Assembly (NCBI GenBank): GCA_044892525.1
Contig: CM097885.1
Coordinates: forward strand, 25,608,001-25,672,000
Length of the DNA: 64,000 nucleotides
Source: Schmidtea polychroa
Lineage: Eukaryota
Reading direction: 5' to 3'
Below, piece by piece: positions 18,776-19,678 of this stretch; positions within the stretch are counted from its first letter, which is position 1; each line of letters opens with the position of its first letter. The notes under the pieces are model-generated. The model was not told the DNA's origin, did no database searches, and saw nothing but the letters and a program-made list of their open reading frames with translations. The position numbers and the translations under genes were made by a program.

Positions 18776-18800
18776 TCCCGGGTCCACACAATACCCTACT

Positions 18801-19678
18801 GTGTATATATACCCAACTAACACAACCCTCCCAACAAAAACATACCTCCATTATGCTTAAACCATTAGAAAAACAACACAAAACCTATACTTTTATAGTA
18901 TTTTAACACCATATTTTAAACAACAACCACCCTTAATCTTTAAAGCCTCAAACTCAAAAGCTTCAAACTAAAAAGAGAATAGAAAAGAAAATGGCATTAT
19001 GAAAAAGTTAGAGGGCTATTTGATCTTTATCAGATCATTGATTTTAAATTATATAAATTAAAAAATAAATGAAAAATAGTAAAACTGCTCTGAGGGGACA
19101 GTGGTATTTTTTTTTTCACTGTCCCCTCAACAGTTTTTTTGATCCGGATCATTTCAACCTCTTTCGTTTATCAAATCTCTTCTAATATACAAGCTGGCCA
19201 GACTCATACATCAGAATCAATCCGATAATAGCAGCACACCTTATTATTCGCTTCTCGCTCGAATATGATTTCATCGGCGTTTTAAGCGTGCTGCTCGAAA
19301 GTACAAATGAATTCGAAAGTGAATTCGAAAGAGGTCCGAAAACCACTGAGAAATAAATGTGCACATTATGGAATCGATCCGGGTGTGTTCGAAAGACTGG
19401 TGACGATAATTACCGGTTCACCATCACACCCGTTTCAATATTTTTTTTTTCATATTTATGTTTAAAAAATTAATTAATTAATAAAATATATAAAATAAAA
19501 TAAAAATAAATAAAATAAAATATAAATCTAAGATACCCACAACATTTTCAATATTATTTTCAAATTTTTAATATTATTTTATGTTGAAAAAAAACTAACC
19601 TCAGATATGATTTGAAAAACTATCCATTTGAACCACTGTGCCAGTCTAGCCCACTGCGCTATCGGGCTTTGGATTTTT
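18801..19678. repeat. Left TIR of Polinton A (terminal AGTAGT missing)
   Basis: Begins GTGTATATATACCCAAC, the reverse complement of the right end minus 6 nt. Confidence 0.9.
19587..19668 (-). ncRNA. TIR copy of tRNA-like unit 3 (distal B box degenerate)
   Basis: Minus strand reads AGCCCGA TAGCGCAGTGG...GGTTCAAATGG...AGTTTTTCAAATCA...T8. Confidence 0.45.

What the first reader, a model, noticed from the sequence alone, without database searches (positions are those of the whole stretch)
18785..18820. Two different Polintons are joined terminus-to-terminus with no host DNA
...CACAATACCCTACT|GTGTATATATACCC: B's intact end (CTACT) is followed by A's left TIR, which lacks exactly its terminal AGTAGT. 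Options are integration of B into A's tip, end-joining of two linear genomes before integration, or template switching at the shared AGT initiation repeat. B has an apparently intact integrase and ATPase but no polymerase here. A has an intact polymerase but broken integrase and ATPase, so a complementing composite is conceivable (speculative).
Basis: partly seen in the sequence, partly recalled or inferred. Interest (0 to 1): 0.7.

Follow-up and report, generated by a model that had tools for sequence, protein, structure and literature searches.

The report
Two Polintons joined tip to tip
Two unrelated virus-like jumping elements (Polintons) in an animal genome sit end to end with nothing between them, most likely because one landed six bases inside the tip of the other in a region already crowded with such elements; both are now broken.

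Summary
The junction is in the sequence as described. B's end (CCTACT, 18795-18800) abuts A's left inverted repeat, which lacks the six outer bases of A's right end. A (18801-33715) and B belong to distant Polinton lineages. B's end is probably intact: another element in the window also ends in AGTAGG. The 'complementing composite' fails. B is a truncated copy that has lost polymerase and major capsid gene, and its integrase carries a 96-bp insertion beside a catalytic Asp. A's integrase, ATPase, capsid and protease are broken. Template switching lacks microhomology (1 base). Best reading (0.45): ordinary nested integration of B into A's tip in a Polinton-dense region. B's far end, which would decide this, is deleted; read support could not be tested; no other copy of either tip was found. 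Nested and tandem polinton-like insertions are already reported; I found no base-exact tip-to-tip join in print or in this scan's notes. Systematic tip targeting stays possible (0.15) but rests on one locus.

The parts
18795..18806 (+). The junction: B's end motif CCTACT followed directly by base 7 of A's left inverted repeat
12196..18800 (-). Element B, a truncated Polinton: one end plus conserved ORF, TBP-like gene, ATPase, pX-like ORF, integrase and the first part of the minor capsid gene
   Evidence: Pfam; same gene order in metagenome relatives; break inside the minor capsid gene
18225..18800 (.). B terminal non-coding region: A-rich tract, C/G box, TGACGTCA repeats, end motif. No partner repeat in the window
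   Evidence: GC 0.53 in the last 100 bases; 7 of 1132 100-bp windows reach 0.50
12196..12876 (-). B minor capsid gene, cut off: 226 aa, profile positions 3-205 of 346; the 10 relatives used are 338-381 aa
12807..13991 (-). B rve integrase with chromodomain, interrupted in frame by a 96-bp insertion at 13430-13533 ((AAT)30 with an 8-bp duplicated target)
14486..15127 (-). B packaging ATPase (Pox_A32), open frame; 472 relatives at E<=0.001, best 97% identical
15202..15693 (+). B TBP-like gene
   Evidence: Pfam PF00352 E 7.8e-15; also in relatives
18801..33715 (+). Element A, a nearly full-length Polinton, 14.9 kb; inverted repeats of about 880-900 bp, 92% identical; no matching target duplication (CCTACT left, ATCAAA right)
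19726..23979 (+). A protein-primed polymerase B, 1417 aa stop to stop, open frame
   Evidence: PF03175 E 2.9e-14; motifs
25932..26693 (-). A probable minor capsid gene
   Evidence: weak match to the B-type minor capsid profile (iE 2.6e-4); 30 relatives without Pfam label
26789..27175 (-). A protease-like piece, 128 aa, incomplete
   Evidence: HW and DSFG motifs present, catalytic Cys motif absent from the frame (motifs recalled); no Pfam hit
28522..29356 (+). A ATPase in two frames (also broken, differently, in the copy at 38-619)
29353..30751 (-). A PLA2-like domain plus rve integrase, in two frames in both window copies
30760..32059 (-). A double jelly-roll major capsid gene, in two frames in both window copies
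   Evidence: PF21738 E about 6e-11 for each piece
33716..33947 (.). Segment C: 232 bp directly after A's right end, ending like a Polinton tip (T run, CCCCGGGG, CCTACTACT). Identity inferred from motif and composition only
   Evidence: no match elsewhere in the window except the duplicate, none in 82 loci, none in viral contigs
1..7299 (+). Direct duplicate of 28485-35775 (99.5%): A's right 5.2 kb, C and flanking DNA. Recent tandem duplication or uncollapsed haplotype
38925..38930 (-). Tip of a further element (E) that starts AGTAGG; a second E tip at 54891 (+). Similarity between the two stops at AGTAGG
   Evidence: (score 52, 0 of 300 shuffles)

Best explanation
A, a Polinton with the canonical (AGT)2 ends, was already in the chromosome, itself close to the tip of another Polinton-like sequence (C). 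A Polinton of a distant lineage, B, was then integrated by an rve integrase six bases inside A's left inverted repeat. That one event puts B's last base against A's 7th base with no host DNA. The displaced six bases, the 6-bp duplication and B's far end lay to the left and were lost in the deletion that cut B inside its minor capsid gene. Both elements decayed and the right part of the locus was duplicated. Shown: the anatomy, the truncation, the broken genes. Inferred: the order of events and the enzyme. The number six is then a coincidence, not a result of the duplication length. One locus cannot tell chance from a preference for tips.
For: One event explains B's full end motif, A's short loss and the absence of filler. 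B's end lies 3.67 kb from its ATPase; contigs of relatives extend 3.3-4.4 kb on that side. AGTAGG ends exist in this window, defined by two E copies. The deletion that must have removed the far end is documented. The window is dense in Polinton remains: six tip-like ends in 56.7 kb outside the duplicate and further scraps at 37463-37747 and 42067-42409. At the density of the four other tips, 2,000-10,000 insertions would put 1.4-7 ends within 10 bp of a tip, or 0.14-0.7 at a tenth of that density (copy numbers assumed from unchecked scan notes). Nested insertion of polinton-like viruses in one another is reported (bioRxiv 10.64898/2026.07.28.741278, passages).
Against: The diagnostic far end is missing, so polarity is unproven. 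No other copy of the B, A or C tip was found (0 matches each), and none of the 38 loci whose ends I printed (of 82 held) showed an AGTAG-type tip. Two tip-near contacts on one element (0 and 232 bp) would be expected only 0.02-0.12 times genome-wide under random insertion, which fits a bias or another history better. A break exactly at the inner edge of the (AGT)2 motif is one position among many (0.14-0.7 expected at window density). An 11-bp direct repeat at 12168 and 33714 is not explained by this model (6 of 1043 control windows reach it). Read support is untested.
Confidence: 0.45

Rival explanations
1. A came second. It inserted at, or a few bases from, B's existing tip (double insertion at one site with ATCAAA as shared target, an aberrant one-ended integration, or a circular A crossing over at the shared CTACT), and a short deletion or the crossover removed A's outer six bases and any spacer. 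B's tip was then originally adjacent to C.
For: CTACT is a 5-bp direct repeat on both sides of A's core (CCTACT left, ACTACT right). Double insertion gives tandem DNA transposons, and small deletions over the junction are common (24 of 36 Hobo dimers; 10.1101/158386, passages). Casposons form tandems at their own target (PMC10359463, passages).
Against: Needs two events, or a recombinase that neither element encodes, and a deletion that stops exactly at B's last base. The CTACT repeat follows anyway from both elements having AGTAG ends.
Confidence: 0.27
2. The contact is secondary: a later deletion, ectopic recombination between A copies, or an assembly join brought the ends together, so that A's two flanks come from different places.
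For: No target duplication around A. A's inverted repeats differ unevenly: 3 substitutions in the outer 444 bp, 11 in the next 197 (p 0.0003 with a boundary chosen afterwards). The locus has a large duplication and a large deletion.
Against: B and A share at most 1 base at the join, so an overlap-driven misjoin is unlikely there; a random deletion would rarely end on both tips. Inner parts of inverted repeats may simply diverge more (inference). Runs of the organism hold up to 0.86 of the sampled words of 13560-19700, which shows that both elements exist but says nothing on the join.
Confidence: 0.13
3. Two free linear genomes were ligated end to end by host repair, with six bases trimmed, and the pair was integrated as one unit through its outer ends.
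For: No filler and a small loss at one end. Adenovirus genomes, which also use protein priming, are ligated end to end by NHEJ when E4 is missing (review PMC7552057, passages).
Against: The same review describes large heterogeneous deletions at such junctions, not losses of 0 and 6 bases. It needs both lineages free in one germ-line nucleus. No outer target duplication can be checked.
Confidence: 0.1
4. The polymerase switched template from B's end to A's end at the shared initiation repeat.
For: End repeats serve the jumping-back step of protein-primed initiation (PMC8097293, passages).
Against: In this head-to-head orientation the repeats are complementary, not identical: 3 of 6 matches, 1 contiguous base.
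Confidence: 0.03
5. 18800 is not B's end. B's inverted repeat continues in C, its true end is 33947, and A is an ordinary insertion inside it.
For: C ends in the canonical ACTACT while B's motif has 5 of 6 bases; B and C both carry a CCCCGGGG box.
Against: B's last 100 bases have their own tip build (GC 0.53); E shows AGTAGG ends; B and C tips are not clearly similar (14 of 300 shuffles reach the score).
Confidence: 0.02

Closest known systems
Nested and tandem endogenous virophages and polinton-like viruses in Halocafeteria seosinensis (bioRxiv 10.64898/2026.07.28.741278; passages read)
   Same: Integrase-bearing elements with inverted repeats inserted in one another (5 PLVs, 9 virophages) and in tandem; viral sequence described as an insertion hotspot.
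   Different: Protist host; the passages read give no base-level tip-to-tip join.
Tandem integration of polintons and PLVs in anemone genomes (bioRxiv 10.64898/2026.10.13.758929; section 13 read whole)
   Different: Boundaries are given as approximate and no junction sequence appears in that section; figures and supplements not seen. Here both partners are pPolB-type Polintons and both are defective.
Mavericks/Polintons (adintoviruses) (PMC8097293 section 7 and passages; PMC8502044 section 7 and passages)
   Same: pPolB, rve integrase, ATPase, capsid genes, long inverted repeats, (AGT)2//(ACT)2 ends. A has a PLA2-like domain, which the second paper ties to Mayetiola-class virion modules; B has a chromodomain integrase.
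   Different: A lacks a matching 6-bp target duplication and its outer left motif; B and E end in AGTAGG, a motif not among the three listed for vertebrate Mavericks.
Tandem DNA-transposon dimers by double insertion in Drosophila (10.1101/158386; passages) and casposon tandems (PMC10359463; passages)
   Same: Two elements abut; short deletions often erase the target duplication at the junction.
   Different: Those are dimers of one family, normally with the target duplication between them; here two distant families meet and only one lost bases.
PLV integration hotspots in Tetraselmis (PMC9356565; passages)
   Same: Element-dense regions where new copies are expected to land in older ones and make hybrids.
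   Different: Regional clustering in an alga, no tip-level analysis in the passages read.

Membership tests
Polinton/Maverick (element A) | Protein-primed polymerase B | tested here: met
   PF03175 above cut-off, 1417 aa
Polinton/Maverick (element A) | rve integrase, packaging ATPase, double jelly-roll capsid | tested here: met
   All present but each in two frames; rve and Pox_A32 pieces score below Pfam's cut-off, capsid pieces above
Polinton/Maverick (element A) | Long terminal inverted repeats with (AGT)2//(ACT)2 ends | tested here: met
   About 900 bp, 92%; right end canonical, left end lacks the motif
Polinton/Maverick (element A) | 6-bp target site duplication | tested here: not met
   Flanks CCTACT and ATCAAA; expected if the left flank was displaced. 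A is filed as a damaged copy, not an intact one
Polinton/Maverick (element B) | rve integrase, ATPase, minor capsid in Polinton order | tested here: met
   integrase interrupted, minor capsid cut
Polinton/Maverick (element B) | Polymerase B and major capsid gene | tested here: inconclusive
   Absent from the fragment; polymerase present in the 2 longest close relatives, L007 and L009. The 403-411 aa ORF of 5 relatives is taken as the major capsid gene from recall
Polinton/Maverick (element B) | Paired inverted repeats and target duplication | not testable with these tools
   Only one end survives; no genome held; no other copy found
Nested insertion by integrase | Host element's sequence continues, with a 6-bp duplication, beyond the invader's far end | tested here: inconclusive
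   Predicted 12-mer absent, but the far end is deleted
Tandem dimer by double insertion | Target duplication between the two elements | tested here: not met
   No spacer at 18800/18801; would need a later deletion
Complementing composite element | Together one intact set of core genes, two outer ends, and further copies of the pair | tested here: not met
   No intact integrase, major capsid or protease frame in either; B's outer end lost. Further copies of the pair could not be sought in the genome

The most novel reading that the evidence does not exclude
Polinton integrases in this genome prefer the GC-rich tips of resident Polintons, also of distant lineages, and stack elements tip to tip. 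Such stacks could be copied through their outer ends and trimmed by deletion, giving a concrete route to the exchange of polymerase and capsid modules between Polinton lineages. The hint is two tip-near contacts on one element (0 and 232 bp), with a 7-bp inverted copy at the third tip.
Probability: 0.15. Interest if true: 0.65.

Novelty: new member of a known kind. Interest (0 to 1): 0.3.

Why it matters
As it stands it is one clean example of Polintons piling onto each other, which is already reported for related elements. It would matter if tip-to-tip joins prove enriched: Polinton integrases are generally treated as having little target choice (my reading; for mavirus-like elements PMC8547959 found no sequence specificity, passages), and the swapping of polymerase and capsid modules between lineages (PMC8502044 section 7) lacks an observed intermediate. 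With many Polinton copies in this genome, the question can be answered by counting.

Tried and rejected
No whole genome is held, so other copies of A, B, C and other junctions could not be counted. Exact tip patterns found nothing: B tip in viral contigs and metagenome contigs, A tip and C tip in viral contigs. B's ATPase found no close relative in viral contigs (0 and 2 distant loci). In metagenomes 111 of 245 stretches encoded a relative and 80 were kept; I printed the ends of 38 of the 82 loci held and none showed an AGTAG-type tip. A fifth element starting at 33949 was considered and rejected: the next 60 bases are 17% GC against 40-53% at the other five tips. The scraps at 42067-42409 and 37463-37747 were considered as B's displaced other half: they are short, degraded and leave a gap of about 100 codons, and five relatives' 403-411 aa genes match nothing in the window, so I take them as separate remains. 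The 11-bp repeat at 12168/33714 as a target duplication of the whole B-A block: 6 of 1043 control windows, noticed after the fact, left unexplained. The scan's notes gave no look-alike for B's tip, C or B's ATPase/TBP DNA, nothing nearby and no similar junction, so B's own copy number is unknown. Literature searches that gave no report of a base-exact tip-to-tip join between Polinton families: (open-licence PMC and bioRxiv only; Kapitonov and Jurka 2006 not read; preprint figures and supplements not seen and may show such junctions). PMC12220804, PMC12721341, PMC11131425 and PMC8464041: passages read, nothing bearing on tip joins.

Full report
Observation. The window reads CCTACT at 18795-18800 and GTGTAT at 18801-18806. 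From 18801 the DNA is the inverse of 32808-33709, about 900 bp at 92%, and equals that right repeat read from its 7th base, with 3 mismatches in the first 300 bases. The right repeat ends in ACTACT at 33715, the canonical (ACT)2 motif of Mavericks (PMC8097293 section 7, read whole). So A's left end lacks the outer six bases and is joined directly to a sequence ending in CCTACT. That motif occurs at 9.5e-5 per position in 7301-33715, so the contact is not a chance resemblance.

Element A, 18801-33715. It has a 1417-aa polymerase B frame (PF03175) with the expected motifs (motifs recalled). Its ATPase, its PLA2-plus-integrase gene and its major capsid gene each lie in two frames, and the protease-like frame is incomplete. 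The integrase and capsid breaks recur in the second copy of this region, because 1-7299 is a 99.5% direct copy of 28485-35775 (7 substitutions, two of them at the breakpoint). A has no matching target duplication.

Element B, 12196-18800. It carries a TBP-like gene, an ATPase, a chromodomain integrase and part of a minor capsid gene. Its ATPase has 472 relatives; 80 metagenome loci were fetched. Close ones keep the order TBP, ATPase, pX-like, integrase, minor capsid, and the two longest (L007, L009) carry a polymerase at the far side. B's minor capsid frame covers only positions 3-205 of a 346-position profile, so B is a cut-down copy, not a polymerase-less design. Its integrase holds a 96-bp in-frame insertion, (AAT)30 with an 8-bp duplicated target, two codons after the second catalytic Asp. 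Eight ORFs among 32 close loci show the motif uninterrupted (the pattern can only find uninterrupted cases), and all 5 relatives used as queries match B in two pieces split at this point. A and B are distant: integrase C-terminal parts 38% identical over 167 residues, ATPases alignable over 32 residues only. Since neither has an intact integrase, major capsid or protease frame, the complementing composite has no basis.

Is 18800 B's true end? Probably. It lies 3.67 kb from the ATPase, where relatives' contigs extend 3.3-4.4 kb, though none of the 38 loci whose ends I printed showed a tip. The last 100 bases are 53% GC, reached by 7 of 1132 windows. Another element in the window, E, has two ends (38930, 54891) whose similarity stops at AGTAGG, so this non-canonical end exists here; a polymerase scrap beside E's right part is 48-61% identical to B-type polymerases and 41% to A's, although its belonging to E is inferred. 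A loss of three bases from a longer B end cannot be excluded without a second copy; four exact tip searches found none.

A's right end is followed by 232 bp (C) that end in a T run, CCCCGGGG and CCTACTACT. C is tip-like by motif and GC content but matches nothing else, so its identity is inferred. Its end is followed, after one base, by a 7-bp inverted copy of itself (the pattern occurs only here and in the duplicate, 0.01 expected); the DNA beyond is AT-rich and not another tip. With further scraps at 37463-37747 and 42067-42409, the window is a pile of Polinton remains among host genes. Earlier notes of this scan describe hundreds to thousands of Polinton-ended elements in this genome; these are unchecked and I use them only for the order of magnitude. 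They returned no look-alike of B's DNA.

Mechanism. Integration of B six bases inside A's tip needs one event and leaves exactly this junction; its signature would lie at B's far end, which is deleted, and the predicted 12-mer occurs only at A's right ends. I give this 0.45. The reverse order, A arriving at B's tip by double insertion plus a short deletion, by aberrant integration or by a crossover at the shared CTACT, has precedent in Drosophila dimers (10.1101/158386, passages) and casposons (PMC10359463, passages) but needs more steps: 0.27. Secondary juxtaposition or misassembly: 0.13, since read support could not be tested. End-joining of free genomes has an adenovirus precedent, but with large heterogeneous deletions (PMC7552057, passages): 0.10. 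Template switching lacks microhomology: 0.03. B and C as one repeat: 0.02.

Chance or targeting. With four other tips in 56.7 kb, an insertion lands within 10 bp of a tip with probability 7e-4; 2,000-10,000 insertions give 1.4-7 cases, or 0.14-0.7 at a tenth of the density. One such junction is therefore within reach of chance, more so as the scan picks out striking cases. Against this, two tip-near contacts on one element would be expected 0.02-0.12 times. That figure uses local density, assumed copy numbers and an inferred identity for C, so it is a hint only. An 11-bp direct repeat linking the DNA just beyond B's break (12168) to A's right end (33714) is reached by 6 of 1043 control windows and fits none of the models.

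Comparison with what is known. Nested and tandem insertion of virophages and polinton-like viruses is reported in Halocafeteria (bioRxiv 10.64898/2026.07.28.741278, passages), tandem polinton and PLV integration in anemones with a proposed accretion-deletion route to mosaicism (bioRxiv 10.64898/2026.10.13.758929, section 13), and hotspots in Tetraselmis (PMC9356565, passages). Exchange of virion modules between adintovirus lineages is proposed in PMC8502044 (section 7). Seven searches gave no base-exact tip-to-tip join of two Polinton families; the library lacks most subscription papers, and preprint figures and supplements were not seen.

Verdict. A feature present in the assembly as described, probably genomic, of a known kind, between two dead elements. 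Interest 0.3. If a genome-wide count shows a peak of tip-to-tip joins (probability 0.15), it would deserve about 0.65.

Noticed in passing
window 13430-13533: An (AAT)30 tract flanked by an 8-bp direct repeat sits inside B's integrase gene: a microsatellite that looks inserted with a target duplication, perhaps the tail of a truncated non-LTR retrotransposon (inference). Many long (AAT)n tracts occur in the window.
   Followed up: partly
window 33941-33955 (copy 5475-5489): The tip-like end of C is followed after one base by a 7-bp inverted copy of itself, like a snap-back or hairpin-opening footprint; unexplained.
   Followed up: partly
window 12168-12178 and 33714-33724 (copy 5248): An 11-bp direct repeat links the DNA just beyond B's broken end with A's right end; 6 of 1043 control windows do as well; unexplained.
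   Followed up: partly
window 1-7299 and 28485-35775: 99.5% direct duplication with period 28,484 bp; real tandem duplication or uncollapsed haplotype. If the unit is whole it also duplicates the Hsp70 gene.
   Followed up: partly
window 37330-38930 and 54891-61700: Element family E with AGTAGG ends and long arrays of 13- to 132-bp repeats; the left end at 54891 is preceded by (AGT)n grading into (ATT)n. May belong with the gene-less foldback elements in the scan's earlier notes.
   Followed up: partly
window 15202-15693 and 17620-17952: B carries a TBP-like gene (noted before by this scan in other copies) and an ORF with a weak Bcl-2 match (E 0.001, below Pfam's cut-off).
   Followed up: no
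window 18273-18347 versus 59443-59517 and 61222-61296: A 75-bp piece of B's terminal region is 80% similar to units inside the E-type arrays, with 15-bp AAGGGTACTGGTC repeats.
   Followed up: no
window 6892-7129, 35370-35607 and 37086-37324: A small intron-containing gene for a cysteine/alanine-rich peptide, present as an inverted pair 1.5 kb apart and once more in the duplicate.
   Followed up: no
window 9493-11509; 44762-54590; 7968-8773; 40451-41812; 53450-54325: Host Hsp70 with one intron (Pfam); exons that look like adducin (recalled); a hAT transposase remnant (Pfam, C-terminal domain); a second hAT-like remnant and a Tc1/IS630-like ORF (both by eye).
   Followed up: no
L007:5616-7684 and L029:2168-3944: Two B-type relatives carry two minor capsid genes in tandem.
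   Followed up: no
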